Positions 5,981-39,523 of a DNA stretch of 64,000 nt are shown in pieces. This stretch comes from Alphaproteobacteria bacterium (GTDB lineage Bacteria; Pseudomonadota; Alphaproteobacteria; Micropepsales; Micropepsaceae), in contig JAATGL010000190.1 of the NCBI GenBank assembly GCA_015654705.1, positions 3,496 through 67,495 of the forward strand, written 5' to 3'. Below the pieces are notes generated by a model. That model saw only the letters and a list, made by a program, of their open reading frames with translations, did no database searches and had not been told where the DNA came from. A program made the position numbers and the translations under genes. Position 1 is the first letter of the stretch; each line of letters opens with the position of its first letter.

Positions 5981-5989
5981 GACGGCCGG

Positions 5990-7327: not shown

Positions 7328-8472
7328 CGGAAATGCCGAAGCGAAATACCCATTTTTTTGTGCTGGACGGATGGCGCGGGATTTGCGCGCTGTTCGTCGC
7401 GCTCAGCCATTTGCGGGTTCTATCGCATGTCTACGGCACGGGGTTCGTGCACAACAGCTATCTGTTCGTGGATTTCTTCTTCGTGCTCAGCGGCTTCGTG
7501 CTCACTCACACCTATGGAAGAACGCTGGTGACACCGGCGGACGTGCGGAATTTCGTCATTCGGCGCTTCGGCAGGCTCTGGCCGCTGCACGCCGCGATTT
7601 TCCTGGTGTTCGTCGTCCTGGAGTTCGGCAAGCTCGCCGTCGCCTCGCGCGTGGGACGCCTGGGAAGCCACGCACCGTTCGGCGGCGCCGCGTCACCCTA
7701 CACCATGGTCACCAACATCCTGCTGATGAATTCCTGGGGCTTCGATCCGGACACGACATGGAACGGGCCCAGCTGGAGCATCGGTGCGGAGTTCTACACC
7801 TATCTCGTCTTCGCCGGCGTTCTGATCTTCGCCGGAAAGCGCGCCTGGCTGCTGGCCGCAGCGATATCCGCGACCGGCGCCGCGATCATCGCGACCTTCT
7901 CGCCGCACTATATGGGCGCGAGCTATGATTACGGGTTCTTTCGCTGTCTGTACGGCTTTTTCATGGGGCTGGTTCTATACGAAATCTATCGGCGACGCGA
8001 AGCGGCCGATGGCGCCCGGCGCGGCGCCTCCATGCGGGAGGCCGCGATCCTGCTCGGCGTGGCGATCTTCGTCGGCTTCGCAAATGAGGGAGCCTTGACC
8101 CTGCTGGCGCCTTTCCTCTTTGCCGGCGCGGTTTATATCTTCGCCTTCGAGCGCGGCATTTTTTCCCGGACGCTGTCCCTGCCGGTCTTTCGCTATATGG
8201 GCGAGCGCTCCTATTCGATCTATATGGTTCACTTCGCCATTTCGCTCGCACTGCTCGGCGCCGGCACCGTGGCCGGAAAGATCCTGCGGCTGGACATGAT
8301 GACCAACATCCCCGCTCCCGGCCGCCCCATCGCGGCGCTTTCGTTCGGCGGACCCTACGCGATGGATGCCGTCACGGTCGTCTATCTGTTTGCCGTCCTG
8401 GGGACCGCGTCCTTGACCTACCGTTTCATTGAGGTGCCGGCGCGGCGCTACTTCAACGCGCTGGCGAAGTAA
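7324..8472 (+). CDS. Acyltransferase-3 family O-acyltransferase
   Basis: LDGWRGICAL, VDFFFVLSGFV, RRFGRLWPLH, WSIGAEFY, GERSYSIYMVH, YRFIEVP; ATGA overlap with flippase stop. Confidence 0.93.
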   Translation: MTEMPKRNTHFFVLDGWRGICALFVALSHLRVLSHVYGTGFVHNSYLFVDFFFVLSGFVLTHTYGRTLVTPADVRNFVIRRFGRLWPLHAAIFLVFVVLEFGKLAVASRVGRLGSHAPFGGAASPYTMVTNILLMNSWGFDPDTTWNGPSWSIGAEFYTYLVFAGVLIFAGKRAWLLAAAISATGAAIIATFSPHYMGASYDYGFFRCLYGFFMGLVLYEIYRRREAADGARRGASMREAAILLGVAIFVGFANEGALTLLAPFLFAGAVYIFAFERGIFSRTLSLPVFRYMGERSYSIYMVHFAISLALLGAGTVAGKILRLDMMTNIPAPGRPIAALSFGGPYAMDAVTVVYLFAVLGTASLTYRFIEVPARRYFNALAK

Positions 8473-9625
8473 GGCCGCACGCCGATGCGGTCCGGTCTGC
8501 CTGTTTGGCCCGATAGGCTTCGTCCACGAACATGCGGATGGCGTCGTTGAACCGCTGCGTCGAGAATTGCAGTGCCCAGGCGCGGCAATTCTCCGGCCGG
8601 ATGGCGTGGCCTTCGCGTTCGAACCGCTCGACCGCCGCGACGATATCATCCGGATGCTGACGATCGAACAGTACGCCCGTCGGCGACGGCAGGGACAGGT
8701 CCCGGACGGTTTCGCGCGCCGCACCGCCGGCGAAAGCAATCACCGGCGTGGCACAGGCGCTCGCCTCCGGCACCACGATTCCGAAATCCTCGGCGGCGGC
8801 AAAAACGAAGGCCCGGGCACGCTGCATATGGTCGACAACGGCCGCCCGCGGCTGGCTTCCGAGGAGTTCTATGTTCGAGGCATCGCCGATCGCCGCCTGG
8901 ATCGCGCGCCGCTGCGGTCCGTCACCGACGACCACGAGACGCCGCTGCGGCATCTTGCGGAACGCCTCCACGATCAGGCTGACGCGCTTGTAGGGGACCA
9001 GACGCGAAACCGTCAGATAGAAATCCTCCTTTTCGCCGCGGGGTACGAACGTCTCGGTATCGACGGGCGGATAGATGACGTCGGCTTCGCGGCGATAGCA
9101 CCGCCAGATGCGCCGCCGGACGAAGTTCGAATTCGCGATGAAACGATCGACCCCGATGCTTGAGATTCGGTCCCAATTTCTCAGCCGGTGCAGGATATAA
9201 CGCGCGATCCAGGCGCCGGGGCCGCGGGATATGCCGCGCTCCTGCAGATAGGTGTCCTGGAGGTCCCAGGCATAGCGGATGGGAGAATGGCAATAGCAGA
9301 TGTGAACCTGCTCCGGGCCCGTCAGCACACCCTTGGCGATGGCGTGCGAACTGGACAGGACGACGTCGTAATCCTGTACGGGAAGCTGCTCGATCGCCAG
9401 CGGGAACAGCGGAAGATAAAGGCGGAACCGCTGCCGCGCGAACGGCAGGGTCTGGATCATGCTGGTGACGGGCCGGCGTCCGCGCAGGACGCCGCGCTTG
9501 TCCTCCGGCAGGAAATCCACCAGGGAAAAAAGGTCGGCGTCCGGAAAGACGTTAAGCAATTGTTCCAAGACCAGCTCGGAACCGCCGATGGTCTCAAGCC
9601 AATCGTGAACGATAGCAATCCGCAT
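8453..9625 (-). CDS. Glycosyltransferase family 4 (WbaZ-like)
   Basis: RIAIVHDWL..GGSE, YCHSPIRYAWD, SRLVPYKR, EDFGIVVPEA; 3' end overlaps convergent acyltransferase by 20 bp. Confidence 0.92.
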   Translation of the reverse strand: MRIAIVHDWLETIGGSELVLEQLLNVFPDADLFSLVDFLPEDKRGVLRGRRPVTSMIQTLPFARQRFRLYLPLFPLAIEQLPVQDYDVVLSSSHAIAKGVLTGPEQVHICYCHSPIRYAWDLQDTYLQERGISRGPGAWIARYILHRLRNWDRISSIGVDRFIANSNFVRRRIWRCYRREADVIYPPVDTETFVPRGEKEDFYLTVSRLVPYKRVSLIVEAFRKMPQRRLVVVGDGPQRRAIQAAIGDASNIELLGSQPRAAVVDHMQRARAFVFAAAEDFGIVVPEASACATPVIAFAGGAARETVRDLSLPSPTGVLFDRQHPDDIVAAVERFEREGHAIRPENCRAWALQFSTQRFNDAIRMFVDEAYRAKQADRTASACGLTSPAR

Positions 9626-9787
9626 CAATGATGTTTCACGGTCCGGCGGCTGCTTCAGCCCAACTGGCCACGGCCCTCAAATCGCAAGATGCTATCACCC
9701 GACAATTGACTTTCGCCCGCTTCGGTAAACATTCTATTTGGTCACCGCGGCGCGTTCAAGCACGCCTATCGCACGGGTTTCGTACAT

Positions 9788-10798
9788 ATGTCAGGACGCG
9801 AGATGCCAGCCTCCCCGCCGCCGCGCGACGAATTGCTGGCGGCGCTCAATCGCGCGGCTTTCGTTCTTGGCCGGCGGTGGCGGGTTCTGATCATGGGAGC
9901 CGGTCTCGGCGCCTTGGGCGGGTTCGCTTATCTTCTGATTGCGCCGCCCTATTACGAAGCGACCAGTGCCCTGGTCGCGACTGAAGCCTTTCCGCACAGC
10001 ACCGGACAAGGCGGGTCTCTGGACAGCCTGGCGAGCTTGGCTGGCGTCACCACCTCAACGAAGCCGCTCGACCCGTTCCAGAAATTCCAGAACGTCCTGA
10101 CATCGGTGCGATTGGGCGATCAGCTCCTGCGGGACGACAGGGCGAAGTCCATCCTGTTTCCGCATCGTTGGAACGCGACCACGAAAAGCTGGGGCCCGCC
10201 GGAAGGGCCCGTGGCGTGGATTGCGGGCGGGTTCAACGCGGCGCTCGGACGCCCGGCATGGACGGCGCCGGACGGCGCCGTGGCGGCCGAGACTCTACAA
10301 CGCAAGCTTACGGTCGCGCCCAGCGCCAAGGGCGGCGTCGTCCAGGTCAGCTATCGCAGCCGGAATCCGGCGGACGCGCTTTACATGCTGAGCATGGTGG
10401 AGAACACGGCAGACAGGCTCATCCGGCAGGACTATCTGAAGGTTGCGGAAGGCTATGCCAACTACATCAACCGGCAGGCGCCCGACGTCACCAACTTCGC
10501 GCCGCGCAGCACGCTGATGTCGATCATGGCAGATTACCAGCAGGTCATGATCATGGCGCGCGCGAATCTGCCCTTTGCGGCCTCGCCTCTCGATCCCCCG
10601 AGCGTGCCGGTAAGCCCGAGCGGTCCCTCCGCTATAATTGCCTTGCTTGCAGGTGCGCTCGTCGGATTGCTGTTGGGAATGGCGTCCGCATTCCTTCCAG
10701 AGACCTGGACGCGCAGGCTGCGGGTCGCGCGCCGCGCGACGCTGCACCGTCCCGTGAATTTGGGGATCGGCGGCCCTGGCCGGAAGAAAACCGCATAG
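9788..10798 (+). CDS. Wzz-like polysaccharide co-polymerase, no kinase domain
   Basis: Two TM helices flanking a soluble region, PPYYEATSAL, SLASLAG, Pro-rich motif before a Gly-rich TM2. Confidence 0.8.
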   Translation: MSGREMPASPPPRDELLAALNRAAFVLGRRWRVLIMGAGLGALGGFAYLLIAPPYYEATSALVATEAFPHSTGQGGSLDSLASLAGVTTSTKPLDPFQKFQNVLTSVRLGDQLLRDDRAKSILFPHRWNATTKSWGPPEGPVAWIAGGFNAALGRPAWTAPDGAVAAETLQRKLTVAPSAKGGVVQVSYRSRNPADALYMLSMVENTADRLIRQDYLKVAEGYANYINRQAPDVTNFAPRSTLMSIMADYQQVMIMARANLPFAASPLDPPSVPVSPSGPSAIIALLAGALVGLLLGMASAFLPETWTRRLRVARRATLHRPVNLGIGGPGRKKTA

Positions 10799-10821
10799 CG
10801 CGTGTTCGCGGCAGCAGACGC

Positions 10822-13800
10822 CTAGCGATTCTGCGACAGTACGGCCAGTGATGCTGCGGTCAGCGCAAGCTGGCTCACGATCTGGGTCGTGTCCATGATC
10901 AGATCGCGGACGTAAAGCGGCGCGAGATCGCGCGGAACGACGATCGCGCTTCCCGGTGGAATGTCGTCGTTGCTGAAATTCAGCCAGGAGGGGCTGAGCG
11001 TGCGTGCCGAGCCATCGGGCAGGATCACGAACGCCAGATCGTCGTCGGCGAACTGGGTATAGCCGCCGGCCTGCGCGATATAATCCCTTCCGGGCTCGTT
11101 GCGGCGATAGGGATAGCTGCCGGAGCGTAGGACCTGTCCCAGCACCGAGACGGTGTAGGGTCGCTGCGGAATGAACACGACATCGCCCGCCTCCAGCAGC
11201 GGATCGCGATCCGGCTTCGCCGCCAGGAGCGCTGGATCCGCGATGATCGAGATTCGGCCCAGGGCCTTCTGGTCGCGCAGTTCCCGCACGAAAACCTGCA
11301 TCGACGCCATGGCATCCGACGACAGCCGCTCGTTCGGATTGGTGCGCCCGACGCCGGCCGTGATCTGTTCCTCGATCTCGCGCGCGGCGCGCGCATAGCT
11401 GTCGCGCTCCAGCGCGGCGGCCGATTTGCGCAGGAACACGGTGCCGTAGGGATACGCCTCGGCCGTCAACCCGCCGGCGCGCGCGAGCAGCGTCGAAAGG
11501 TGGTCGCCGCGCATGATCTTGTAGGTGCCGGCGCTCTTGACCTGGCCCTGCAAGGTCACGCTGCCGACATCGACATTGGTGAACACCTCGCTGAAGCGAA
11601 ATTCATCCGCCGGCTTGACGATATAGGAGGCCAGCGTTCCCTGGCGCAGCGGCAGGACGTCGCGTTGCGTGGCGGCGGTGCCGTTGCCGGGGTCGACATG
11701 CGTGGAGACGAGTTCGACGCCGCTCTCGTCCGCCCATCGCATCGTTCCCCCGGCGGCGGCGACCAGATCCTGCAGGTTGACGCTCGGGCCGACGACATAC
11801 TGGCCGGGCCCGCGCACGGCGCCGTCGAGCGAGACGACATGGTCGGCCATGAAATTCACCAGCACCAGCGGATCGACCCCCAGCTGGCGCGCCAAGGCGC
11901 CGAATGTGCGCACTTCCTGATTGGTCGGCACCTCGCCGGCGGCGAGCGCCTGCTTTTCCAGGTTCTCCGCTTCCGGCTGTGCCGGTCGCCGGTTGACCGG
12001 CGACGGAGGATATTGCCCCGAGAGGGATGCGATTTCGCGGCGCTGCATGTTGCCGCCGCGATCCGCGCGCTGGCTGGCCTGCAGGGCGGCCGCGGCAGAC
12101 GAGTTCTGGTCCGGCGCCAGTTGATCGCTCTGATCGGTGTCGGCGTCCGGCGTGCCTTGATTCAGGCTGTCGCGGGGCTTCGTGTCGTTCTGGTTATACG
12201 GGTTATACGGGGCCTGTCCCTGATAGGGCAGGTTCGGGTTGTTCTGCTGCCCGTTCGCCTGATCATCCAGATAGGTCTGATTGTTGAACGACGAAGTCTG
12301 TGGCGAATTCTGCTGGTCCGGCTGGACGGCAAAAGCCGGATTCTGGCCATTGGCAATGGCCGGATTGGTGCGGTTCTGCGGTGTCCTGTTCTCGGCCTGG
12401 GGATTGCGGATCGCTTCCGCGTCGGCATCGCGCTTGTCCAGGAATCCCTTGACCGTCGACGCGATCAGCCGCGATTCCTCGATGGACAGCACGCGCACGA
12501 TATCGTCGCTCTGCAGGTCCATATTTTCACTGCCGTCCAGCACCGACACGGGCGTGAACGCGACCAGCGAGCGCAGAAACGTGCGCGGATCGCGCCGCGA
12601 AATGATGCCGAACAGCGTATAGGGTGATCGGCCGAGTGCGCCGGGCGCGCGCAGCATGTCGGACAGTTTCGACATCTTGCCGAGCGAATAGCTTCCGGCG
12701 AGCGACATGCCGCCGGAGAGTTCGGCTTTGCCGACCACTTGGTCCGCGCCGGGTTCGACCGACAGGATTTCGCTGTCGCGCACCGTCCCCGCATTGTCCT
12801 TGACCGAGGTCATCTCGGTGCGGCCGTCCGCCTCGATCCGCAGAACAGACACCCGGTACTGTCCGCGCACCTCCATGCCGCCGGACAGGGCCAGCAGGTT
12901 GCGGACGCTGATGCCGCTCTGTCCCGGCGGAATCTCGTAGATGCCGGGACGGCGGACCCAGCCGGTCACCGCGACCGTCGGGCCGAGCACCGGCACGATG
13001 ATCCGGTCGCCGTCCGCCAGCGAGACATGGCGCGAGGCGCCGCCCGGCGTCAGCACGCTGTAGAGATCGATCGTCACCGTCTTGTCGCCGCGCACAATGC
13101 GGACGTTTCGCAGGCTGCCGGTTTTCTTCACGCCGCCCGAAAGCAGGAGCGCATCGACCGGCGAGGAAAGGCCGGTCAGGATTCTCTGCCCCGGGTTGAA
13201 CACCTCGCCCGACACCATGACGGTGATCTGCCGCAGCCGGCCGACGGAGACAAAGCCTTCCGTCGCGGCATAGGTGCGGTGGATTTCGTCGTTCAACTGC
13301 TGACGGAATTCGCCCAGCGTGCGCCCGCTCGCCGACAGCGGCTTGAGGCGCGGCAAAACGACCCGGCCGTCGCGATCGACATAGGCGCGGAACTCCGAAT
13401 TCTCCTGCCCGCCGCGGATCGAAACGATCACCTCGTCGCCCGGCCCCAGCAGGTAATCGTCCTGCACGCCGCCCATCTGCGGAACCGTGACCGACCTGCC
13501 GACACCGAGCTGTTCGTAGCCGAACTGCTTCAGTTCGACGCCCGCGCGCGTCGAGAGAATCTTTTCAAGCCTGGAGGTTGCAAGGCGCGAATTCTGCGGC
13601 GCAGGCGGCAGCATTATGGATTCCTGCGGCGACTGGCCCTGTGACGGGATCGTCTGCTGGTCCGACTGGCCACGCGGCGATTGCTGGAATTGCTGAAGCT
13701 GCTGGATCAGGTCCGGCGACAGCCCGATGCTCTGCTGCGCCTGCACCCCGCCCGCCGCGAGGAGAACGCCGCCGGCCAGCATGAGGAAACCCAGGCACGC

Positions 13801-13842
13801 GGCCAGCACCGCATGGCGGCGCGTGCTACGGCTCTTTCCCAC
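10822..13842 (-). CDS. Large SLBB-repeat polysaccharide export protein (KpsD/OtnA-like)
   Basis: KQFGY, DYLLGPGDEV Poly_export motif, several V.G.V..PG.Y SLBB units, PGSAIVVP plus C-terminal helix. Confidence 0.88.
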   Translation of the reverse strand: MGKSRSTRRHAVLAACLGFLMLAGGVLLAAGGVQAQQSIGLSPDLIQQLQQFQQSPRGQSDQQTIPSQGQSPQESIMLPPAPQNSRLATSRLEKILSTRAGVELKQFGYEQLGVGRSVTVPQMGGVQDDYLLGPGDEVIVSIRGGQENSEFRAYVDRDGRVVLPRLKPLSASGRTLGEFRQQLNDEIHRTYAATEGFVSVGRLRQITVMVSGEVFNPGQRILTGLSSPVDALLLSGGVKKTGSLRNVRIVRGDKTVTIDLYSVLTPGGASRHVSLADGDRIIVPVLGPTVAVTGWVRRPGIYEIPPGQSGISVRNLLALSGGMEVRGQYRVSVLRIEADGRTEMTSVKDNAGTVRDSEILSVEPGADQVVGKAELSGGMSLAGSYSLGKMSKLSDMLRAPGALGRSPYTLFGIISRRDPRTFLRSLVAFTPVSVLDGSENMDLQSDDIVRVLSIEESRLIASTVKGFLDKRDADAEAIRNPQAENRTPQNRTNPAIANGQNPAFAVQPDQQNSPQTSSFNNQTYLDDQANGQQNNPNLPYQGQAPYNPYNQNDTKPRDSLNQGTPDADTDQSDQLAPDQNSSAAAALQASQRADRGGNMQRREIASLSGQYPPSPVNRRPAQPEAENLEKQALAAGEVPTNQEVRTFGALARQLGVDPLVLVNFMADHVVSLDGAVRGPGQYVVGPSVNLQDLVAAAGGTMRWADESGVELVSTHVDPGNGTAATQRDVLPLRQGTLASYIVKPADEFRFSEVFTNVDVGSVTLQGQVKSAGTYKIMRGDHLSTLLARAGGLTAEAYPYGTVFLRKSAAALERDSYARAAREIEEQITAGVGRTNPNERLSSDAMASMQVFVRELRDQKALGRISIIADPALLAAKPDRDPLLEAGDVVFIPQRPYTVSVLGQVLRSGSYPYRRNEPGRDYIAQAGGYTQFADDDLAFVILPDGSARTLSPSWLNFSNDDIPPGSAIVVPRDLAPLYVRDLIMDTTQIVSQLALTAASLAVLSQNR

Positions 13843-14196
13843 GAGAGTTCCGCCCTTCGATCGCGTCTTCAAAATCGCCCAGCCGCTAGCGCCATCGAAG
13901 CATCTAACACGGGGTTTGGTCTTGCTCAAGAAATGAACAGCGACGGAGTCCAATGCCGGATTTCGTTTGTCCAACCGCGATGAGCAGTCCACATGACCGG
14001 ATTTTCAGAGTTCGGCAAACCTGTTTTCCGACGTCGGCAATGGGCAGACGCCGTGCGCCGGGCCGCAATGGCAAAGTCCTGCGGGATGCGTTAGATCGTT
14101 TTGGCGTGCGCGCGGCGCTCTGGGAACAATGGGGATTCGGTGGCATACAAATCGGACGGGTGCGGTCTGGGCCGCTATGCGAGGTCGGAGGTCGGC

Positions 14197-15711
14197 GTGC
14201 CCAAATCTCACCGTCGCGCTGACCTTTGCCCGGCACCGCCGCGTGGGCGGGCCACAAGAAGCGTGGTTTTGGCGGTCGCGCTGACGGCCGCTTTGCTGGC
14301 GTCCGGCCATGCGTTCGCCAGCCCCTGGGCGGAAGTCGGCGACTCGCAATTGCGCTCCGATATCGAGGTTCTGGCCGCCGCCGGCGTAATCGACGACGTC
14401 ACAATGCAATGGCCGATACCCTGGGGCGGCATCGTCTCCCGCCTGCGCCAGAGCGGCGCGCTCGACGGCCAGCCGGATTTCGTTCGGGACGCGGCGCGCC
14501 GCGTGGCGCAGCGTGGAACCGAACAGGCCGAACCCGGACGGCTGCACTTCACCGTGACCGGCGATTTCACCAACAATCCGAGCGTCGTTCGCGCCTTCGA
14601 TGCGCTCGGCCGCGAGGACATGCAGGGCCAGGCTTCGGCGGAATGGGTCGGGGAAACCACCGCGATCCGCCTGTCCGTGGGCGCCCAGTCCCACAACCGC
14701 TACGACCATCAGTCGCTGGTGCTGGACGACAGCTACATCGCACAGCGCATCGGCAACGCGGCGCTCTACGCGGGCTATCTGACGCATTGGTGGGGTCCGG
14801 GCTGGATTTCGGCCATGTCGGTTTCCAACAACGCGCGGCCGTTTCCGCAGGTCGGATTGGCGCGCGCCGATACGACTGCTTTCCAGAGTTCCTGGCTGCG
14901 CTGGCTGGGCGCGTGGCAGGCCGAGTTCTTCGTCGGATGGCTGGACGGCCACCGCGTGGCGGAGAACACGTTGATCGACGGGCTTCGCGTGAACTTCAGC
15001 CCGCTGCCGGGACTGGAAATCGGTCTCGCCAGGCTCGACGAGCTGTGCGGCACCGGTCATCCCTGCCAGCCGCTGTCGACGTACTTCGATCTGAGAAACG
15101 ACCCCACGCATCCCAGCCGCACCAATGACGAAGGCAACATGGACATACGCTACACGAAAGTGCTGGGCGGCGTTCCCTTCGCGGTCTATGCCCAGTTCAT
15201 GAACGAGGACACCAATCCCCTCGTCCACTCCGGCACCAGCCATCTGCTCGGTGCAAGCACCTGGGTGCCGTTCGGTTCGTCGCCGCTGCGGCTGAGCGTC
15301 GAATACGCCGACAGCATCGCGACGACGGACATCTTCAGCTTCGGAAACGACATCTACGGATTTTCCTATCACGACTACAAATATGCCGACGGGATGCGCT
15401 ATCGCGACCGCACATTGGGCTTCAGCCTGGACGGTGATTCCCGGCTCGCCTCGCTGCAGGCGAGCTGGCTGGGCCGCCACGACATCACCTACACGCTGAC
15501 TTATCATCATGCCTCGATCGGATCGCCGCACGATCCGGCCAACAATATCGTGACCACCAGCCCGGTCACGATCAATATCGGCGACGCCCGCGTGCACATC
15601 CCCTTCCGGCATGTGAGCTTCGATCTGGAGGCCCGTATTCAGGACGACCAGCCGAGACCCGATCACGGCTATACCGGCGCGTTCGAGGCCAACATGAATT
15701 TCCGCCTGTAA
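14197..15711 (+). CDS. Capsule assembly Wzi-family outer-membrane protein
   Basis: LRSDIEVLAAAGVI...QWPIPW, LDDSYIA, HWWGPGWISAMSVSNNARPFP; C-terminal MNFRL; GGAGG before GTG. Confidence 0.87.
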   Translation: MPKSHRRADLCPAPPRGRATRSVVLAVALTAALLASGHAFASPWAEVGDSQLRSDIEVLAAAGVIDDVTMQWPIPWGGIVSRLRQSGALDGQPDFVRDAARRVAQRGTEQAEPGRLHFTVTGDFTNNPSVVRAFDALGREDMQGQASAEWVGETTAIRLSVGAQSHNRYDHQSLVLDDSYIAQRIGNAALYAGYLTHWWGPGWISAMSVSNNARPFPQVGLARADTTAFQSSWLRWLGAWQAEFFVGWLDGHRVAENTLIDGLRVNFSPLPGLEIGLARLDELCGTGHPCQPLSTYFDLRNDPTHPSRTNDEGNMDIRYTKVLGGVPFAVYAQFMNEDTNPLVHSGTSHLLGASTWVPFGSSPLRLSVEYADSIATTDIFSFGNDIYGFSYHDYKYADGMRYRDRTLGFSLDGDSRLASLQASWLGRHDITYTLTYHHASIGSPHDPANNIVTTSPVTINIGDARVHIPFRHVSFDLEARIQDDQPRPDHGYTGAFEANMNFRL

Positions 15712-32618: not shown

Positions 32619-32695
32619 TGGCGACCCCGGGAGGACTCGAACCACCGGCCTACGGTTTAGGAAACCGCCGCTCTATCCTGCTGAGCTACGGGGTC
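32619..32695 (-). tRNA. tRNA-Arg(CCU)
   Basis: GACCCCG-TAGCTCAGCAGGATAGAGC-G-GCGGT-TTCCTAA-ACCGT-AGGCC-GGTGG-TTCGAGT-CCTCC-CGGGGTC-G-CCA; 77 nt, encoded CCA. Confidence 0.96.
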
Positions 32696-33144: not shown

Positions 33145-34401
33145 TCAGGGCGACAACTCAAATAATACTCCACCGGCTTTCTTACCGCCGATTTGTGCTA
33201 CTCCGTACAGGTTGCCAAGAGAGTCTTCTATCAACTTTCCGATAGGCGTGCCGCCATCCTCGCAATCATTCTTTTCGCAGAAGCAATAAAGTACCTGCTC
33301 TGATGTCCCGCTCAGTTCAAATATTGTTCCGTTCCCCTTCGTTCCACCAAGGTCTGTGGTGCCAAACAAATTGCCACTTGTATCGATCATTAGCGGGTTT
33401 GGGCCGTTGCCATCTTCGCAGCGCCTGAGGGAGCAGAAGCTGTAGAGAACCGTGAGCGGAGATTTCGGGCCGCTCGGCAGCAACTTGTATGCCGCGCCGC
33501 AATACACATATCTCTTGGGACAATGACCAGTCATACCTGTTGTTCCTAGAAGCTCCCCCGCAGCGTCCATCACCAGGGGGTCTGCTGGGCTCCCTCCATC
33601 TGGGCAACTCCTCGTCCTACAAAAATGGTGAAGGACTGTTTCGGTCCAAGTTGTTCTGCCAGAGTCAGGGCTCAATTCGTACAATACTCCGTTAAAGTCG
33701 TAACCACCGCTCGTAGTTGTTCCAAACAGATTCCCCACAGAATCCACAAACACATCGCCCGACGGTGCGGCACCGTCGGTGCAGTTTTCGCCCCGGGAAC
33801 AAAAGTCGTGGAGAACGGTGTAGCCCCAACTGCCACCATTTGGCATCAGCATAAACACAACGCCACGGTTGCTGTTGCCGCCTTCTGTTGTTGTGCCATA
33901 AAGCGGGGAAACGCCGTCGTAGAGGGCGCCCGATTGAGCGCCTGCATAGGTGACGTTGCTTCTCGGCAGTGAATTGTTGCTGAAATTAACAAGCGTAGTG
34001 AGCGTCCATTGTGACCGATCAATATTGGGTGTTAGTTCGAAGACAAACCCTCCGTCCTGTGATCCGCCTTCCAATGACGTGCCGTACAAATTTCCAGATG
34101 CATCTTCGATGGTGCCGTTTGTATCGACTGGGTAGACCAACTTGCGCGTCCACTTCGTGCGGTCCCCATTTGGGGTCAACGAATAAACCCCACCCGCTGC
34201 TCCGCCATACAGTGTTCCCGAAGCGTCGAGAAAGAGGCCATTTCCTATCGGAAACGTTTCCGGCGAGAAGGAGTGCAGGACCTTATATGTGTAAGCTTCG
34301 GCGGAGCCTATAGCTCCAACAATTGCCAACGTGAATACTACTGCCCTGGCGAACGTTCGACGGGTGCAGCAGCGTCTCTCCAAGAGAAAACTAAAACGCA
34401 T
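33145..34401 (-). CDS. Second secreted GloVer-like repeat protein, Cys-loop variant, low GC
   Basis: Signal peptide, D..GNLYGT..GG...G.VFEL repeats, four FC-x4/5-C.DG loops; visibly AT-richer DNA. Confidence 0.85.
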   Translation of the reverse strand: MRFSFLLERRCCTRRTFARAVVFTLAIVGAIGSAEAYTYKVLHSFSPETFPIGNGLFLDASGTLYGGAAGGVYSLTPNGDRTKWTRKLVYPVDTNGTIEDASGNLYGTSLEGGSQDGGFVFELTPNIDRSQWTLTTLVNFSNNSLPRSNVTYAGAQSGALYDGVSPLYGTTTEGGNSNRGVVFMLMPNGGSWGYTVLHDFCSRGENCTDGAAPSGDVFVDSVGNLFGTTTSGGYDFNGVLYELSPDSGRTTWTETVLHHFCRTRSCPDGGSPADPLVMDAAGELLGTTGMTGHCPKRYVYCGAAYKLLPSGPKSPLTVLYSFCSLRRCEDGNGPNPLMIDTSGNLFGTTDLGGTKGNGTIFELSGTSEQVLYCFCEKNDCEDGGTPIGKLIEDSLGNLYGVAQIGGKKAGGVLFELSP

Positions 34402-34757: not shown

Positions 34758-35477
34758 ATGACGATCACCGCCGACATGCTGACGGTCGAGATCTTCGCCG
34801 ACGGCGCGGACAAGGCCAGCATTCTCGAACTCGCCGCGAACCCGCGCGTAAAGGGTTTCACGACCAATCCGACGCTCATGCGGCAGGCCGGCGTGACCGA
34901 TTACCAGGGCTTCGCGAAGGACGTTCTGGCCATGGTCGCCGACCGGCCGATCTCATTCGAAGTCTTCTCGGACGATTTCGACGAGATGTACCTGCAGGCG
35001 TGCAAAATCTCGACCTGGGGAGCGAATGTCTACGTCAAGATTCCGGTCACGAACACCAAGGGGGAAAGCGCCATCCCGCTCATCCGCAGCCTGGTGCGCG
35101 ACCGCGTGCAGATGAACGTCACCGCCCTTTTCACCGAGGCGCAGATCGAAGCAGTATCGGATGCCATGATCGATGCGCCGCCCTGCAACATCTCGGTGTT
35201 CGCGGGCCGCATCGCCGATGCCGGCGGCGATCCGCTGCCGATCATGCGGCGCGCGATCGAGATCATGCGCCCGCGCCCGCAGCAAAAACTCATCTGGGCG
35301 AGTCCGCGCGAAGTTTACAATGTCGTGCAGGCCGATATGATCGGCTGCCATATCATCACGGTGACGCGCGATCTCATCGCCAAGCTCACCTCGCTCGGCC
35401 GCGACCTGACGGAGTTCTCGCTCGACACAGTGAAGATGTTTCGCCGCGACGCGGTGAGCGCGGGTTATTCCCTTTGA
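34758..35477 (+). CDS. Short transaldolase-family protein
   Basis: IFADGAD, GFTTNPTL, SFEV, Schiff-base YVKIP, NVTA, SVFAGRIAD; GGGGAG RBS. Confidence 0.9.
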   Translation: MTITADMLTVEIFADGADKASILELAANPRVKGFTTNPTLMRQAGVTDYQGFAKDVLAMVADRPISFEVFSDDFDEMYLQACKISTWGANVYVKIPVTNTKGESAIPLIRSLVRDRVQMNVTALFTEAQIEAVSDAMIDAPPCNISVFAGRIADAGGDPLPIMRRAIEIMRPRPQQKLIWASPREVYNVVQADMIGCHIITVTRDLIAKLTSLGRDLTEFSLDTVKMFRRDAVSAGYSL

Positions 35478-37627
35478 GCGGACCGCCGGACGCGGCGATC
35501 ACCGCACCGCCTTCCGGCGGCGGAATCTCCGTCGTCTTTCCCGTCGCGGAACGCAATGCGGACGGCGATTTTCGCGGCTTCGAAACCGTGGGCGGCGAGA
35601 CGCTGATCCGCCGCTCTCTGCGTTCGTTCCAGCCCTTTCGGCAGCTGATCGACAAGGTTTTCTACGTCGTCCTCGACGAGCACGAAAAGCGCTTCGATAT
35701 CGCGCGGCGCATGGCGCCGGGCATTTCGGACATCCCGTTCGAACTTGTCCTCCTGTCCTCGCCCACCGGCGGGCCTGCGGAAACCGTGGCGCGCGCCGTG
35801 GCCAAGCACGGCATTTCCGGCAGGACGATCGTCTGCGACATCGATCATCGTCTCGATCCCGCGCCCCTGTTCGGCAACATCGCCGCCGCGCCGGACGAAT
35901 GTCTGGTCAGCCTGTGGCCGCTGGCCCGCGAAGACCTGAAGCGCTGGAGCGTCGCCTGTGTCGGCCGGGACGAGGCGATCGTCAACGTGGCCGAGCGGCG
36001 GCTTCCGGATGCCGCCGGAAGTTTTTCCGGCGTGATCGGCTGCTATTATTTCCCCGACATCCGCGTCGTGATGGATGTCTGCCAGGACCAGGCATTCAAG
36101 CGCTTCTGCGAATATTTCAACCGGCTTGCGTCGCACGGCGCCCCGGCGCGCGGCGTCCGGCTGGAAACGGCCGAGTTCTTCGGCGACAGGGAACGCATCC
36201 GCCTGCTCGAAAATCCGGCGGAATTCCGCGGCGCTATTTTCTGCGATATCGACGGCACGCTGATCGTCCATGAGGACAAGCCGGACTATTCGCGCCTGCC
36301 GCAATTGCTGCCCGGCAGCCGCGAAAAGCTGCGCAGCTGGATCGCCGACGGCTATTTCGTCGTGCTCTGCACCGCCCGCAGCGGGGAGGATGAGCCGCGC
36401 CTCGTCGAAATGCTGCATGAACTGAACATTCCCTATCACCGGATCGTCACCGGACTGCCCAGCGGCGTGCGTGTCCTGATCAACGACCGCAAGCCCTATG
36501 CGATGCTCGAATCGCAGGCGGCATCGATCGAGATCGCACGCAATCACGGCATCGCGGCGCTGGAGATATCGCCAGGGCGCCGGCTCACGGTGCTGCGGCG
36601 CTTCGAAGGCGGTTCCTTTGCGGAGACCCTGCTCGTCGAGGAGAACGGGAAGACGTTCGTGCGCAAGCGGGCGGCAAAGGACGGCAATCTCAGCGTCGGC
36701 CATCATCGGCTGCGCGATCAATTCCGCACCATCGAACGTTTCTCGCAGCTCGCACCGGAACTGGTGCCGGCGCTTTACGGGGAAGAGAACAATTCCCACG
36801 AATATTTCTACGACATGGAATTCCTGGACGGGTACGTCCCGGTCGCGGAATGCGCCGACGAGATGCGCGCGGCGGCGCTGGACCGTCTCTTCGACCGGTT
36901 CGGCGCCCGCATCTATTGCCACAGAAGCACCGATCGCGGCGCGGCGGAGGATTGGCTCCTGCGCCACCTCGATAGCAAGATTCATCCGAAGATCGCGGCG
37001 CTCGCGGTGCATGATCGTCTGCGCCCGCTTCTCGCCGGCGAAGGCGTCGAGATCGACGGCGTGTTCCACCCAAGCCTTGAAAAGCTGCTCGCGCGGATCG
37101 TCGAGAACGACGTGCTGGCGAAGTTCGCGCCGCAATTCCTGACGCTGGTGCATGGCGATCTAACGTTCCAGAACATCATGACCCGCGCGGACGGCGACAC
37201 CAGGGTCATCGACATGGAAGCCCAGGACAGCCTGGAAGCCATCGAGCTCGACCTGGGGAAGATTTTTCAGTCGACCCACAATCAATACGAAAAATGGTGG
37301 CGTTCTTGCACGTCCCTGTGCGGGAGCGCATCGCCCACCAGCCTTCGGCTGAATTTCCATCCCGCATCCCCAGACAGCATGTTGCTCGATGCCCTGCGCC
37401 GGCGCTGGGGCAAAATTCTCGGCTGCTCCGCGGACGCCGTCGACATCAAGGGCGGTTTCTATCTCGGCCTGCATCTGGTGCGGATGGTGCCGTTCCGCAT
37501 GAAGATGAGCATGGACCACGCCCTTTATGCGCTGGCGACGGCGCTCCGGTCGCTCAACGCCGCGATCGAGCAGGCCGCGCCGCGGGTCGCCCGGCGCAGC
37601 GCGCGGCGAATGCGCGTCGCCGCCTGA
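35474..37627 (+). CDS. Three-domain fusion: BcbE-like GT-A/NTase + HAD phosphatase + APH/choline-kinase-fold kinase
   Basis: TTGA overlap with transaldolase; GPAET/CDIDH/IGCYYF; IFCDIDGTL/CTAR/INDR; EGGSFA/VRK/YDMEF/HGDLTFQNIM/VID/DLGKI. Confidence 0.82.
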   Translation: MSGPPDAAITAPPSGGGISVVFPVAERNADGDFRGFETVGGETLIRRSLRSFQPFRQLIDKVFYVVLDEHEKRFDIARRMAPGISDIPFELVLLSSPTGGPAETVARAVAKHGISGRTIVCDIDHRLDPAPLFGNIAAAPDECLVSLWPLAREDLKRWSVACVGRDEAIVNVAERRLPDAAGSFSGVIGCYYFPDIRVVMDVCQDQAFKRFCEYFNRLASHGAPARGVRLETAEFFGDRERIRLLENPAEFRGAIFCDIDGTLIVHEDKPDYSRLPQLLPGSREKLRSWIADGYFVVLCTARSGEDEPRLVEMLHELNIPYHRIVTGLPSGVRVLINDRKPYAMLESQAASIEIARNHGIAALEISPGRRLTVLRRFEGGSFAETLLVEENGKTFVRKRAAKDGNLSVGHHRLRDQFRTIERFSQLAPELVPALYGEENNSHEYFYDMEFLDGYVPVAECADEMRAAALDRLFDRFGARIYCHRSTDRGAAEDWLLRHLDSKIHPKIAALAVHDRLRPLLAGEGVEIDGVFHPSLEKLLARIVENDVLAKFAPQFLTLVHGDLTFQNIMTRADGDTRVIDMEAQDSLEAIELDLGKIFQSTHNQYEKWWRSCTSLCGSASPTSLRLNFHPASPDSMLLDALRRRWGKILGCSADAVDIKGGFYLGLHLVRMVPFRMKMSMDHALYALATALRSLNAAIEQAAPRVARRSARRMRVAA

Positions 37628-37638
37628 GGATCGCGCCG

Positions 37639-38355
37639 GTGCAGGAGATATCCCTGATATTCCCGATGGCCGGCCAGGGCGCGCGCTTCGGCTATCGCTT
37701 CAAGCCGTTCCTGGAGGTGCGGGAAATGTCCTTCATCGAAGCGGCGTTCCTGCCGTTCCGCCCATGGCTTTCGCGGATCGCCCAGGTCTATTTCGTTTTC
37801 ACGCGCGAGCAGGACACGACTCATCAGGTAAGCGCGCGCCTTGATGAAATGTTTGCGGACGTGCCTTTCGAAGCCGTCATTCTGGATCGCGCGACGGAAG
37901 GCCCGGCGGTGACGCTTGGCCGCTGTCTCGAATCGGAAAATATTTCGGGTCCGATCATGGCCTGCGACTGCGACCACGCCCTGACGGTCGACGGCCTCAT
38001 GCGCGCGGCGGAGAATCCCGACATCGAATGCGCCCTGCCGACATGGGACCTCGACGGCGAATCCCTCGCCTCGTGGAGCGTCGCCGCCATAGGCGGCGAC
38101 GGGCGCATCGCGGCGGTCTCGGAAAAGGCGCTTCCGGCGCATGGCGGATGCTGCCGCGGCATCATCGGCTGCTATTATTTCGCGGACGCCGCACGCGTCC
38201 GCCGGCTCATCGCCGAGACACACGCGATCCATCTTTCCGACGTCGTCGCCCGCTATCTCGAAGAGCACCGCGATGTCCGTTCGGTTCCGGTTCGCGAAGC
38301 CTATTTCTTCGGCGATCCGGCACGCCTGGCGCGCGTAGCGTCGCTGGGACTCTGA
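37639..38355 (+). CDS. BcbE-like nucleotidyltransferase/GT-A fold protein
   Basis: LIFPMAGQGARF..FKPFL, TEGPAVT, ACDCD, VSEK, IGCYYF, FFGDP. Confidence 0.82.
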   Translation: MQEISLIFPMAGQGARFGYRFKPFLEVREMSFIEAAFLPFRPWLSRIAQVYFVFTREQDTTHQVSARLDEMFADVPFEAVILDRATEGPAVTLGRCLESENISGPIMACDCDHALTVDGLMRAAENPDIECALPTWDLDGESLASWSVAAIGGDGRIAAVSEKALPAHGGCCRGIIGCYYFADAARVRRLIAETHAIHLSDVVARYLEEHRDVRSVPVREAYFFGDPARLARVASLGL

Positions 38356-38377
38356 CGGACCGGGAAAGGCGCGAGAC

Positions 38378-39523
38378 ATGACCAGACCGGTTACCGCGAT
38401 CGTCACGGGCTTCACCAGAAGCCCGGACCTTCCCGGCCTGAGCCTCGCCCCGTTGCAGGCGCTGAAGCGCAAGGGCGTCATCCAGCGCATCGTCGCGGTG
38501 ACCTGGGACAAGGCGGAGATCGACAGGTTCGTGATGCCGCTGGCCGCTATGGACGACGTAGAACTGGTCCGCGTGCCGGAGCCGCAGGTCGCGGGCGGGC
38601 GCTATCAGACGGGCGTCGTCTACCAGATCCGTAATCTGGAGGAGGCGCTTCGGCGGGTGCCGGAGCGCGATGCACTGATCGTGAAAATCCGGCCCGAATT
38701 CATCATCGATGAGGCCCTCCTGCAGGACAAGATCGTCAATTTCGAACGCCATTGCGCGCCGTCGAAGCTGGCCAGGCGGTTCGGCGTGACGATGCCGCCA
38801 TCGCCCTTCGCGATGAAAATCTGGATACCGTGGGCGGACGCCAGCCAGCCTTTCTTCTATGAAGATGCGGCCTTCATCGGCCTCAAGCGCGATATCCAGA
38901 TGCTCGCGAGCCGCGAGGCGGAGGATCGTCTGGACGTCCTTGCGGACAAGAACTGCGGATGGTTCGCGCATGTCGTGCGTTTTGCCGTCCCGTTCCTTCG
39001 CACCTATCCGATATTCGAACGGTATATGCACGACTTCCGCTATTTCCCGAACAGCACGCATTATCGCGTCGCGCTTTTGCCGGGACTGATGAACGATGGG
39101 TTCTTCTGGCACCTGCTGATCGCCCATGCCTGGATTCTGGCAACGTCCTTCCATGTCGATTGCGGCGAGCCCGGACAGATCCGCTTCTACACCAACATCT
39201 CAAACCCGAATGCCGACTGGAACTCGCTTGCGTCGCTCATGGTCAATCCGCCCTACAACGATGTCGCGCTCTGGCGCGACGGCCAGAAGCCCGGCGGTCT
39301 GACGCCCTGCACGGCGCGCACCTATGGCAGGCTGGTCGACGACAGCTGGCAGCACGCGCTGTTCACAACGCCGGTGCTGCGCGATCTGACGCCGGACCGT
39401 CTGCGCGCCGTCCTGCGCAACGTGGCGCTGTACCGGCGCGGGCTTCTGGCCGAGGCCGAGGACGGCTTCTACCGCCGCCTGTCGGCCCTCTATCGCCAGC
39501 ACTGGGAACAGCGCGCCGCCTGA
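38378..39523 (+). CDS. Hypothetical protein, distantly WavE-like glycan-modifying enzyme
   Basis: AIVTG, VAVTW, YQIRNLEEAL, IVKIRPE and D..FIG resemble the WavE pattern from memory; last gene of operon. Confidence 0.5.
   Translation: MTRPVTAIVTGFTRSPDLPGLSLAPLQALKRKGVIQRIVAVTWDKAEIDRFVMPLAAMDDVELVRVPEPQVAGGRYQTGVVYQIRNLEEALRRVPERDALIVKIRPEFIIDEALLQDKIVNFERHCAPSKLARRFGVTMPPSPFAMKIWIPWADASQPFFYEDAAFIGLKRDIQMLASREAEDRLDVLADKNCGWFAHVVRFAVPFLRTYPIFERYMHDFRYFPNSTHYRVALLPGLMNDGFFWHLLIAHAWILATSFHVDCGEPGQIRFYTNISNPNADWNSLASLMVNPPYNDVALWRDGQKPGGLTPCTARTYGRLVDDSWQHALFTTPVLRDLTPDRLRAVLRNVALYRRGLLAEAEDGFYRRLSALYRQHWEQRAA

What the first reader, a model, noticed from the sequence alone, without database searches (positions are those of the whole stretch)
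34758..39523. Transaldolase-led four-gene operon: candidate undescribed ketose activation/transfer module
Seen: tight coupling (TTGA overlap, 11 and 22 bp gaps) of a transaldolase, a GT-A/HAD/kinase fusion, a BcbE-like GT-A protein and a WavE-like protein. Known: BcbE-like and BcbF-like HAD proteins occur in capsule loci such as Pasteurella multocida types B/E, whose polymers carry fructofuranose (from recall); transaldolases make ketose phosphates. The SFEV (Glu) and SVFAGR (Phe) residues fit true transaldolase rather than FSA. Inference: the operon makes a ketose-P, re-positions phosphate by kinase plus phosphatase, activates it and transfers it to a surface glycan, possibly the one encoded 20 kb upstream.
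Basis: partly seen in the sequence, partly recalled or inferred. Interest (0 to 1): 0.78.

Follow-up and report, generated by a model that had tools for sequence, protein, structure and literature searches.

The report
Transaldolase-fed sugar-activation operon with private transferase
Four tightly packed genes appear to build a ketose sugar phosphate, move its phosphate, link it to a nucleotide and probably attach it to a cell-surface sugar chain; no paper I found describes this gene set, and it could show how bacteria activate ketose sugars such as fructose.

Summary
The four genes are real and sit exactly as described: a TTGA overlap, then 11-bp and 22-bp gaps.

- **Gene 1** is a true transaldolase and a second copy; a housekeeping one lies elsewhere in the genome.
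- **Gene 2** fuses three domains: a sugar-1-phosphate nucleotidyltransferase (NT)-like domain with a degenerate glycine loop, a HAD phosphatase, and an APH-fold kinase.
- **Gene 3** is an intact NT paralog of that first domain.
- **Gene 4** has no Pfam hit. Its confident model has the GT-A/NT fold, and its tie to WavE is very weak.

Across 23 loci with enough flank, transaldolase lies next to the three-domain gene in 21, in varying order. These loci come from Myxococcota, Planctomycetota and marine or freshwater metagenomes. Their neighbours are mostly surface-polysaccharide genes. One distant variant carries split transketolase-type genes instead of transaldolase.

The closest characterised system is the phage AfhE/AfhF route to UDP-arabinofuranose: kinase, then phosphatase, then NT. 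My reading is a transaldolase-fed version that makes an NDP-ketose, with gene 4 as the likely transferase. The sugar is not identified.

I could not test homology to BcbE/F/G or KfoE. No evidence links the operon to the capsule locus 20 kb away. Earlier notes of this scan describe related cassettes on other DNA. I rate it a new variant of a known kind.

The parts
34758..35477 (+). Gene 1: dedicated small transaldolase (239 aa), the second copy in this genome
   Evidence: It matches TIGR02134 at 334.8 bits against a cut-off of 281.95, and PF00923 at E 4e-39. Aligned to solved transaldolases 1vpx and 3s0c, it keeps the Lys of VKIP, the Glu of SFEV, the Phe of SVFAGR, and the phosphate-site Arg and Ser-x-Arg. 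A housekeeping transaldolase lies on contig C173.
35474..37627 (+). Gene 2: three-domain protein (717 aa), NT-like + HAD phosphatase + APH-fold kinase; its TTG start overlaps the gene 1 stop
   Evidence: The model has pLDDT 84.8. There are 102 homologs, all unnamed or generically named.
35519..36208 (+). Gene 2, residues about 16-245: NDP-sugar pyrophosphorylase-like domain with a degenerate glycine loop (FPVAERNADGDF in place of FPMAGxGxRF)
   Evidence: Foldseek matches 4evw at E 1.7e-11 with target TM 0.74. VIA gives Z 21.2.
36221..36568 (+). Gene 2, residues about 250-365: HAD phosphatase domain (DIDGT motif, invariant T300, K340, N337-D338)
   Evidence: Pfam and NCBIfam give HAD signals. 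Invariant columns are listed. The family profile matches 4xrp at E 8e-6 and 1xpj at E 3.6e-4.
36581..37573 (+). Gene 2, residues about 370-700: APH/choline-kinase-fold kinase (HGD 560-562, N567, D580 invariant)
   Evidence: PF01636 scores 25.3 bits against a cut-off of 23.2. Invariant residues are. hhalign against the RB69 gp52 kinase gives probability 84%, E 8e-6. VIA matches maltokinase 5jy7 at Z 14.0.
37639..38355 (+). Gene 3: stand-alone nucleotidyltransferase (238 aa) with an intact FPMAGQGARFG loop; paralog of the gene 2 N-terminal domain
   Evidence: PF12804 scores 27.6 bits. It is 34% identical to gene 2 residues 18-242, E 8e-35. The family profile matches GalU and 4evw at E 3e-4.
38378..39523 (+). 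Gene 4: 381-aa protein of unknown family with a GT-A/nucleotidyltransferase fold; candidate transferase
   Evidence: It has no Pfam, NCBIfam or PDB sequence hit. The model has pLDDT 93.7. Foldseek matches GT-A glycosyltransferases at E about 1e-4. VIA gives Z 10-12 to both nucleotidyltransferases and GT-A enzymes. It lies next to NT-plus-kinase modules in L001, G074 and G091.

Best explanation
The operon is a self-contained pathway that makes and uses a nucleotide-activated ketose.

Proposed steps:
1. The dedicated transaldolase supplies a terminally phosphorylated ketose: fructose 6-P, sedoheptulose 7-P or an octulose 8-P.
2. The kinase domain of gene 2 phosphorylates the anomeric hydroxyl, giving a bisphosphate.
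3. The HAD domain removes the terminal phosphate.
4. The intact nucleotidyltransferase (gene 3) joins the resulting ketose 2-phosphate to an NMP from an NTP, giving an NDP-ketose, most likely in furanose form.
5. Gene 4, a divergent GT-A-fold protein, transfers the sugar to an acceptor, probably a surface glycan.

The N-terminal NT-like domain of gene 2 has lost its glycine loop. It probably serves as a binding or scaffolding domain.

Shown here: the domain identities, the catalytic motifs, the gene linkage and the glycan context in relatives. Inferred: the order of steps (by analogy with phage AfhE/AfhF), the identity of the sugar, the nucleotide used, the role of gene 4 and the acceptor.
For: 1. 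Transaldolase lies beside the three-domain gene in 21 of 23 loci with enough flank, at 26-58% identity and in varying order. These are L002, L004-L007, L025-L033, L036-L039, L041, L042 and L045.
2. A gammaproteobacterial variant (L010) has a separate APH kinase and an NT-HAD fusion next to split transketolase/TPP-enzyme genes. That is another ketose-forming chemistry in the same position.
3. No SIS-type aldose-ketose isomerase was found near any module or in the window's own genome.
4. The transaldolase keeps its phosphate-binding residues, so its product carries a terminal phosphate. That explains why a phosphatase is needed.
5. The catalytic motifs of the HAD and kinase domains are invariant across 15 relatives.
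6. Published work reports that phage AfhE (NT + APH-fold kinase) and AfhF (HAD) convert arabinose 5-P through the 1,5-bisphosphate and 1-phosphate to UDP-arabinofuranose (PMC13326640). The kinase and HAD domains align weakly to the RB69 counterparts, and the HAD profile matches 1xpj.
7. Of 135 neighbour genes from 17 loci, the commonest families are NDP-sugar epimerases/dehydratases, GT2, GT4, Polysacc_synt_2, UDP-GlcNAc 2-epimerase, carbamoyltransferase and Wzy_C.
8. The glycine loop of the fused NT domain is degenerate in exactly the loci that carry a close stand-alone NT paralog.
9. Gene 4 relatives lie next to NT-plus-kinase modules in two congeneric genomes and in L001.
Against: - No enzyme activity was tested, and the sugar and nucleotide are unknown.
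- A dedicated transaldolase is hard to explain if the sugar is fructose, because fructose 6-P is abundant.
- In this genome the operon stands alone. It lies between a secreted repeat protein and an efflux pump, about 19 kb from the capsule genes.
- Gene 4 is absent from the Myxococcota, Planctomycetota and marine loci. Its fold does not separate a glycosyltransferase from a nucleotidyltransferase.
- The closely related locus L001 has no transaldolase within about 9 kb.
- Sequence similarity to the characterised phage enzymes is weak: probability 84% for the kinase, 48% for the HAD, and none for the NT domain.
- Homology to KfoE or BcbE was not tested.
Confidence: 0.55

Rival explanations
1. 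The pathway makes an NDP-aldose (heptose or octose), as in lincomycin octose synthesis (LmbR transaldolase, LmbN isomerase, LmbP kinase, LmbK phosphatase, LmbO NT; from my own knowledge) or the GmhA/HddA/GmhB/HddC heptose route. An isomerase encoded elsewhere would convert the ketose.
For: The enzyme logic is the same: transaldolase, kinase, HAD phosphatase and NT. The N-terminal domain resembles HddC in structure (5xhw and 6jq8). GmhB-type phosphatases appear weakly in the profile search.
Against: No SIS_2 isomerase was found in the window's genome, which is 75.6% complete. No relative of the arabinose-5-P isomerase was found in about 100 loci. The kinase is APH-fold, not the GHMP type of HddA/LmbP. 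The single-sequence isomerase query has limited reach.
Confidence: 0.12
2. The product is the same, but the steps run in the order of cell-wall sugar recycling (MupP phosphatase, then AmgK anomeric kinase, then MurU NT; from my own knowledge). The HAD domain first frees the ketose, and the kinase then phosphorylates the free sugar.
For: It is the same trio of enzyme types. MurU matches the N-terminal domain in structure (4y7t, Z 16.4). The G091 mini-module has NT, kinase and a gene 4 relative with no HAD domain detected, which suits a free-sugar substrate there.
Against: The characterised relatives with the NT-kinase fusion, AfhE/AfhF, are reported to act through the bisphosphate (PMC13326640). 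A terminal phosphate also holds a ketose in the furanose form during anomeric phosphorylation; this is inference.
Confidence: 0.15
3. The activated product is not used for a surface polysaccharide in this organism. It would instead feed a small molecule, a lipid or a protein modification, with gene 4 acting on a non-glycan acceptor or not acting as a transferase at all.
For: The operon is isolated from glycan genes in the window, in L001, and in the mini-modules of G074 and G091. The fold of gene 4 fits nucleotidyltransferases as well as GT-A enzymes.
Against: In 17 other loci the core genes sit among polysaccharide genes. The operon contains no natural-product or lipid genes.
Confidence: 0.1
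4. A LicA/LicC-like module activates a phosphorylated alcohol such as choline as a CDP-alcohol for phosphodiester decoration, and the transaldolase is an unrelated passenger.
For: An APH/choline-kinase-fold kinase is paired with a LicC-like NT fold (1jyk, Z 16.7).
Against: The transaldolase is linked in nearly all loci, with varying gene order. A transketolase-type set takes its place in L010. A fused HAD phosphatase has no role in a LicA/LicC scheme.
Confidence: 0.04

Closest known systems
Phage UDP-D-arabinofuranose pathway: arabinose-5-P isomerase + AfhE (NT + APH-fold kinase) + AfhF (HAD phosphatase); phage HY126, counterparts RB69 gp55, gp52:53 and gp51 (PMC13326640)
   Same: An NT domain is fused to an APH-fold kinase and works with a small HAD phosphatase of the 1xpj type. 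A dedicated enzyme diverts a central sugar phosphate into the route. The reported order is kinase, then phosphatase, then NT, giving an NDP-furanose. The kinase aligns at probability 84% and the HAD at 48%, and the HAD profile matches 1xpj.
   Different: Here the feeder enzyme is a transaldolase, not an isomerase, so the sugar should be a ketose. The HAD domain is fused between the NT and kinase domains. The fused NT domain has a degenerate loop, and a second intact NT is encoded alongside. The setting is bacterial and glycan-related, not phage DNA modification. No similarity was detected for the NT domain.
Fructose side-branch genes of capsules: P. multocida bcbE/bcbF/bcbG and E. coli K4 kfoE with its neighbours
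   Same: Mutants show that BcbE and BcbG are needed for the fructose branch (PMC13552107). Unchecked earlier notes of this scan say these genes encode an NT-plus-kinase protein, a 128-aa HAD and a roughly 240-aa NT. Those are the same activities, including the two NT-type domains seen here.
   Different: Those loci are described without a transaldolase and without the three-domain fusion. I could not obtain their sequences, so homology is untested. The cited paper names neither their enzyme activities nor a fructose donor.
Lincomycin octose pathway LmbR/LmbN/LmbP/LmbK/LmbO and the GDP-heptose pathway GmhA/HddA/GmhB/HddC (own knowledge)
   Same: The sugar phosphate is phosphorylated at the anomeric carbon, its terminal phosphate is removed, and it is then joined to a nucleotide. 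In the lincomycin route a transaldolase supplies the sugar phosphate.
   Different: Those routes need an SIS isomerase and a GHMP kinase. Here no isomerase was found, and the kinase is APH-fold.
PDB 4evw, an NDP-sugar pyrophosphorylase from Vibrio cholerae RC9 (structural-genomics entry)
   Same: It is the best structural match of the gene 2 N-terminal domain: Z 21.2, rmsd 2.3 A, 216 residues, Foldseek E 1.7e-11. It also shares family motifs in the profile alignment.
   Different: 4evw keeps the intact PMAGxxSRF loop, which gene 2 has lost. Neither its substrate nor its genomic context was available to me.

Membership tests
Transaldolase, small type (TIGR02134 / PF00923) - gene 1 | Score above the curated family cut-off | tested here: met
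   TIGR02134 scores 334.8 bits against a cut-off of 281.95. PF00923 scores 135 bits against 27.
Transaldolase, small type (TIGR02134 / PF00923) - gene 1 | Schiff-base Lys, catalytic Glu, and Phe where fructose-6-P aldolase has Tyr; phosphate-binding Arg and Ser-x-Arg | tested here: met
   In the alignment to 1vpx and 3s0c, VKIP, SFEV, SVFAGR and ASPR line up with the KIP, SAEV/SVEV, SPFVGR and ASIR motifs of those chains. Which residue plays which role is from my own knowledge.
Transaldolase, small type (TIGR02134 / PF00923) - gene 1 | Transfers a dihydroxyacetone unit between sugar phosphates | not testable with these tools
   This needs an enzyme assay.
AfhE/AfhF-type sugar-activation cassette - genes 2 and 3 | NT-fold domain and APH-fold kinase in one polypeptide | tested here: met
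   PF01636 scores 25.3 bits. The NT fold matches 4evw at Z 21.2, and the kinase part matches maltokinase at Z 14.0.
AfhE/AfhF-type sugar-activation cassette - genes 2 and 3 | Partner HAD phosphatase of the small 1xpj type | tested here: met
   The HAD domain is fused here, not separate. The profile matches 1xpj at E 3.6e-4. hhalign to RB69 gp51 gives probability 48%, E 1.8e-4.
AfhE/AfhF-type sugar-activation cassette - genes 2 and 3 | Detectable sequence homology to a phage AfhE counterpart (RB69 gp52:53) | tested here: inconclusive
   The kinase half gives probability 84%, E 7.9e-6 over 171 columns. The NT half gives probability 0.5%. tblastn against the phage collection found no hit in RB69.
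AfhE/AfhF-type sugar-activation cassette - genes 2 and 3 | Kinase acts on a sugar phosphate, the phosphatase acts on the bisphosphate, and the NT forms the NDP-sugar | not testable with these tools
   This needs biochemistry.
BcbE/BcbF/BcbG - KfoE fructose-branch genes | Sequence homology to the P. multocida or E. coli K4 proteins | not tested
   No reference sequence was reachable. The accession of UMN026, which I recalled as a K52-capsule strain, is not in the collection. The 120 best of 226 homologs of gene 3 carry no such name.
WavE family (PF07507) - gene 4 | Match to the Pfam model | tested here: not met
   There is no hit at E <= 0.1, and none anywhere in the genome at E <= 10. Only 2 of 42 remote relatives match, at E about 2e-3. 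The Atlas shows the family on 10% of the members of one neighbouring cluster.
GT-A-fold glycosyltransferases - gene 4 | GT-A (nucleotide-diphospho-sugar transferase) fold | tested here: met
   The model has pLDDT 93.7. Foldseek matches GnT-I, POMGNT1 and GTA/GTB at E 1e-4, TM about 0.3. VIA gives Z 10-11 to GT-A enzymes, but Z 11-12 to IspD and GlmU-type nucleotidyltransferases.
GT-A-fold glycosyltransferases - gene 4 | DxD-type metal-binding motif after strand 4 | tested here: inconclusive
   The family conserves R-P-D at that position, which is R-P-E in the window. It also conserves E162-D163 and H259-x-D261. None of these is a clear DxD.
Sugar-1-phosphate nucleotidyltransferases - gene 3 | N-terminal G-x-G-x-R loop and family-level HMM or profile match | tested here: met
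   FPMAGQGARFG is invariant across 18 relatives. PF12804 scores 27.6 bits against 27. The profile matches GalU, 4evw, IspD and GlmU at E 3e-4 to 3e-2.
HAD phosphatases - gene 2, middle domain | DxDG(T/V) nucleophile motif plus conserved Thr/Ser, Lys and acidic motif | tested here: met
   D258 is conserved in at least 90% of 15 relatives. D260, G261, R302, K340 and N337-D338 are invariant, and T300 is nearly invariant. I assigned these residues to the HAD motifs by position.
Lincomycin/heptose-type NDP-aldose pathways | SIS-type ketose-aldose isomerase in or near the cluster | tested here: not met
   There is no SIS_2 hit in the window's genome, which is 75.6% complete. No relative of the RB69 isomerase was found in any fetched locus. 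The second query has limited sensitivity.

The most novel reading that the evidence does not exclude
This is a complete four-gene pathway for a nucleotide-activated ketose (for example NDP-sedoheptulofuranose, NDP-fructofuranose or an NDP-octulose). No paper I found describes such a donor. The dedicated transaldolase defines which ketose is made, an APH-fold kinase makes a ketose 2,omega-bisphosphate, and a new GT-A-like family (gene 4) is the ketosyltransferase.
Probability: 0.35. Interest if true: 0.8.

Novelty: new variant of a known kind. Interest (0 to 1): 0.6.

Why it matters
Ketose sugars such as fructose occur as side branches on bacterial capsules, including those of Pasteurella multocida types B and E. 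I found no paper that describes the activated donor. A 2026 study shows that BcbE and BcbG are needed for the fructose branch but assigns them no chemistry (PMC13552107).

This operon packs supply, activation and probable transfer into four co-translated genes, so it is a compact set for in vitro reconstitution. The near-universal link to a transaldolase, replaced by transketolase-type genes in one variant, suggests the cassette handles ketoses built to order.

The module also shows an enzyme domain decaying after duplication. Wherever a free-standing NT paralog is present, the fused NT domain has lost its glycine loop.

All relatives in public collections are unnamed or carry misleading names such as fructosamine-3-kinase. 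A function here would annotate several hundred environmental genes.

Tried and rejected
- I took neighbourhoods from the search for related loci, the genome search and my own HMM scans instead.
- **False fusion.** The hits P0090 and P0104 looked like transaldolase fusions. P0090 is a frameshifted gene call: only 123 transaldolase residues align, followed by out-of-frame stretches. It shows adjacency, not a real fusion. I did not check P0104.
- **WavE.** The family model did not match gene 4 or anything in the genome.
- **KfoE/BcbE sequences.** I could not reach them. The plasmid search gave one irrelevant HAD hit. The phage search gave only partial single-domain hits. The UMN026 accession is not held. 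The P. multocida paper gives no domain assignments for BcbE or BcbG.
- **Literature.** Searches for a nucleotide-activated fructose, for transaldolase together with fructofuranose, and for xylulose together with transketolase in O-antigen clusters found nothing relevant.
- **The 269-aa protein** next to transaldolase in six marine loci is not significantly related to gene 4: hhalign probability 17% and 0.2%.
- **Synteny.** In the closest congener that carries the efflux operon (G523), none of the window's genes from the STAND regulator (26883) to gene 4 was found in the 11 kb beyond the outer-membrane gene, so no island borders could be set.
- **Kinase fold.** Fold searches with the whole gene 2 model were dominated by the NT domain. 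The kinase fold was seen in only one row.

Full report
**Observation.** Four open frames lie head to tail on the + strand. Gene 1 is 34758-35477. Gene 2 is 35474-37627, and its TTG start forms a TTGA overlap with the gene 1 stop. Gene 3 is 37639-38355, with a GTG start after an 11-base gap. Gene 4 is 38378-39523, with an ATG start after a 22-base gap. Purine-rich ribosome sites precede genes 1, 3 and 4. The terminator-like matches are below the shuffle mean and lie inside genes, not between them. The next gene converges from the other strand.

**Gene 1.** It scores 334.8 bits on TIGR02134 against a cut-off of 281.95, and far lower on the fructose-6-phosphate aldolase models. In alignments to solved transaldolases the Schiff-base Lys, the Glu of SFEV and the Phe of SVFAGR are all in place. 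So are the Arg and Ser-x-Arg that I know as the phosphate site. The enzyme should therefore handle terminally phosphorylated ketoses. The genome also carries a housekeeping transaldolase on another contig (297 bits), so gene 1 is a dedicated extra copy.

**Gene 2.** Pfam and NCBIfam show an APH-type kinase, a HAD phosphatase and a faint NT signal.
- An alignment of 15 relatives keeps the HAD nucleophile motif (D260-G261 invariant, D258 nearly so, within DIDGT), T300, K340 and N337-D338. It also keeps the kinase HGD, N567 and D580.
- The model (pLDDT 84.8) places residues 19-248 on NDP-sugar pyrophosphorylases. The best match is 4evw from Vibrio cholerae RC9: Z 21.2, rmsd 2.3 A, 216 residues, Foldseek E 1.7e-11. 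GalU, RmlA, HddC, LicC and MurU follow.
- The kinase part appears once, against mycobacterial maltokinase (Z 14.0).
- So the first domain is a sugar-1-phosphate nucleotidyltransferase type, not a glycosyltransferase.

**Gene 3 and the degenerate loop.** Gene 3 is 34% identical to the first domain of gene 2 (E 8e-35) and keeps the FPMAGQGARFG loop, which is invariant in its family. Its profile matches GalU, 4evw, IspD and GlmU. In gene 2 the same loop reads FPVAERNADGDF. Across loci the pattern is consistent.
- Where a close stand-alone paralog is present, the fused loop departs from the consensus. This holds for the window, L001, L004-L007, L025 and L026.
- Where there is no such paralog, the fused domain keeps AGxGxRF. 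This holds for L002, L027, L028 and the marine loci.
- This agrees with an earlier first-reader note on the same stretch (e1-5450315). I read it as decay of the fused copy after duplication.

**Gene 4.** It has no Pfam, NCBIfam or PDB sequence match.
- It has about 200 close relatives, many from Rhizomicrobium MAGs and all hypothetical.
- A profile search of 1.84 billion representatives found 437 relatives. A set of remote ones is clearly homologous (hhalign probability 100%), yet only 2 of 42 touch the WavE model, at E about 2e-3.
- The WavE model finds nothing in this genome, even at E 10.
- The model is confident (pLDDT 93.7) and has the GT-A/nucleotidyltransferase fold. Foldseek favours GT-A glycosyltransferases (E about 1e-4, TM about 0.3). 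VIA gives Z 11-12 to IspD and GlmU and Z 10-11 to GT-A enzymes. Fold alone cannot decide its activity.
- Its genomic company does help. Relatives of gene 4 follow a distant NT-HAD gene and a separate APH kinase in G074. They follow an NT gene and an APH kinase in G091. They follow the three-domain gene and its paralog in L001.

**Co-conservation.** The genome-collection scan gave seven full-length relatives, from Planctomycetota, Sandaracinaceae, Kofleriaceae and an alphaproteobacterial MAG. The metagenome scan gave 22 more loci that carry the three-domain gene.
- My domain HMMs place a transaldolase directly beside the three-domain gene in L002, L004-L007, L025-L033, L036-L039, L041, L042 and L045.
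- The transaldolase is sometimes upstream, sometimes downstream, and once on the other strand.
- Most loci without it are short or end at the gene. Two have real flank: L001 (about 9 kb each side) and L034 (none upstream, only about 0.6 kb downstream).
- Linkage that survives rearrangement at 26-58% identity argues for a functional tie.
- The family is rare in reference genomes. No ortholog was found in 100 genomes of the window's family, and there was one partial hit in 400 genomes of its class.

**Context in relatives.** Individual neighbours include GT4, GT2, Acyl_transf_3, Wzm/Wzt, Polysacc_synt_2 and DegT genes. A pooled scan of 135 neighbour genes within 6 kb in 17 loci is led by NDP-sugar epimerases/dehydratases (8), GT2 (6), Polysacc_synt_2 (5), UDP-GlcNAc 2-epimerase (5), carbamoyltransferase (4), GT4 (4) and Wzy_C (3). 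The core module therefore belongs to surface-glycan synthesis in most lineages. In the window it stands alone. A secreted repeat protein, NikR and a TonB receptor lie on one side, and an efflux pump on the other. The Wza/Wzi/Wzz/GT4 capsule genes end about 19 kb upstream. I found nothing that links the two.

**A telling variant.** L010, from a single-cell gammaproteobacterial genome, has a separate APH kinase and an NT-HAD fusion. Next to them lie an ABC exporter, a Wzy_C protein and a run of split transketolase and other thiamine-diphosphate enzyme genes. Transketolase, like transaldolase, builds ketoses. No aldose-ketose isomerase of the SIS type was found near any module or in the window's genome. 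These points favour a ketose as the activated sugar.

**Mechanism.** Notes from earlier runs of this scan pointed me to the phage AfhE/AfhF system, and I read the paper. AfhE, an NT fused to an APH-fold kinase, is reported to phosphorylate arabinofuranose 5-P to the 1,5-bisphosphate. AfhF, a HAD phosphatase, removes the 5-phosphate. AfhE then forms UDP-arabinofuranose (PMC13326640). The RB69 counterparts align to the gene 2 family weakly: kinase probability 84%, HAD 48%, NT none. The HAD profile matches 1xpj, the same structure that paper reports for the phage phosphatases. I therefore propose the same order here, applied to a ketose phosphate made by transaldolase, ending in an NDP-ketofuranose. 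Lincomycin octose synthesis and the GDP-heptose route (own knowledge) share this logic but need an isomerase and a GHMP kinase, which are absent here.

**Which sugar.** This is open. Fructose 6-P is the simplest candidate, but it would hardly need its own transaldolase. Sedoheptulose 7-P or an octulose 8-P would explain that gene better.

[quoted passage not shown] It assigns them no enzyme activities (PMC13552107). Earlier notes of this scan state that these genes and E. coli kfoE with its neighbours encode an NT-plus-kinase protein, a small HAD and a roughly 240-aa NT. If so, gene 2 equals BcbE with BcbF fused in, and gene 3 equals BcbG rather than BcbE. I could not fetch those sequences, so this remains a lead.

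**Verdict.** The module is best filed as a new, transaldolase-fed and fused variant of the kinase/phosphatase/nucleotidyltransferase sugar-activation cassette, with a private candidate transferase from an unnamed family. My searches found no description of it, and public records give its members no meaningful names. The scan has noted related cassettes before on other DNA, including one pairing a transaldolase with a similar three-domain fusion in a viral contig (e1-5479995).

Noticed in passing
window 33145-34401 (- strand): A 418-aa protein with a signal-peptide-like start and many Gly-rich repeats of the form GG..G.G.VFEL.P. It has no Pfam hit. It lies directly upstream of the operon, on the other strand, in a stretch of lower G+C (0.564 for 32-34 kb).
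   Followed up: no
window 32619-32695 (- strand): A tRNA-Arg (CCT) lies 2 kb upstream of the operon, next to nikR. In the closest congener that carries the efflux operon, none of the window's genes from the STAND regulator (26883) to gene 4 is found beyond the outer-membrane efflux gene. The operon therefore looks accessory, but no borders were found.
   Followed up: partly
L010:12770-16427: In a gammaproteobacterial single-cell genome, a run of split transketolase-like and other thiamine-diphosphate enzyme genes lies next to an NT-HAD fusion, an APH kinase, an ABC exporter and a Wzy_C gene. It may be a transketolase-fed counterpart of the module.
   Followed up: partly
L036:12715-13524, with relatives in L029, L030, L031, L037 and L038: A conserved protein of about 270 aa with no Pfam hit lies next to the transaldolase in four of six marine loci and elsewhere within them in the other two. 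Its N-terminal motif faintly recalls the remote relatives of gene 4 (hhalign probability 17%). It may be the transferase in those lineages.
   Followed up: partly
L031:7822-9441, L036:7777-9351, L038:7552-9135, L029:4-783: Carbamoyltransferase (NodU/CmcH-type) genes lie directly beside the module in four marine loci. This hints that the sugar or its acceptor is O-carbamoylated there.
   Followed up: no
L023 (G074:C15) 8485-11619 and L024 (G091:C85) 7345-10152: Two genomes of the window's genus carry a smaller module of NT (with or without HAD), a separate APH kinase and a gene 4 relative. It has no transaldolase and lies outside glycan loci.
   Followed up: partly
window 4889-15711: A capsule-type locus with an NDP-sugar epimerase/dehydratase, a GT4, a Wzz-like protein, a 1060-aa Wza-like exporter and Wzi. 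I found no link to the operon.
   Followed up: no
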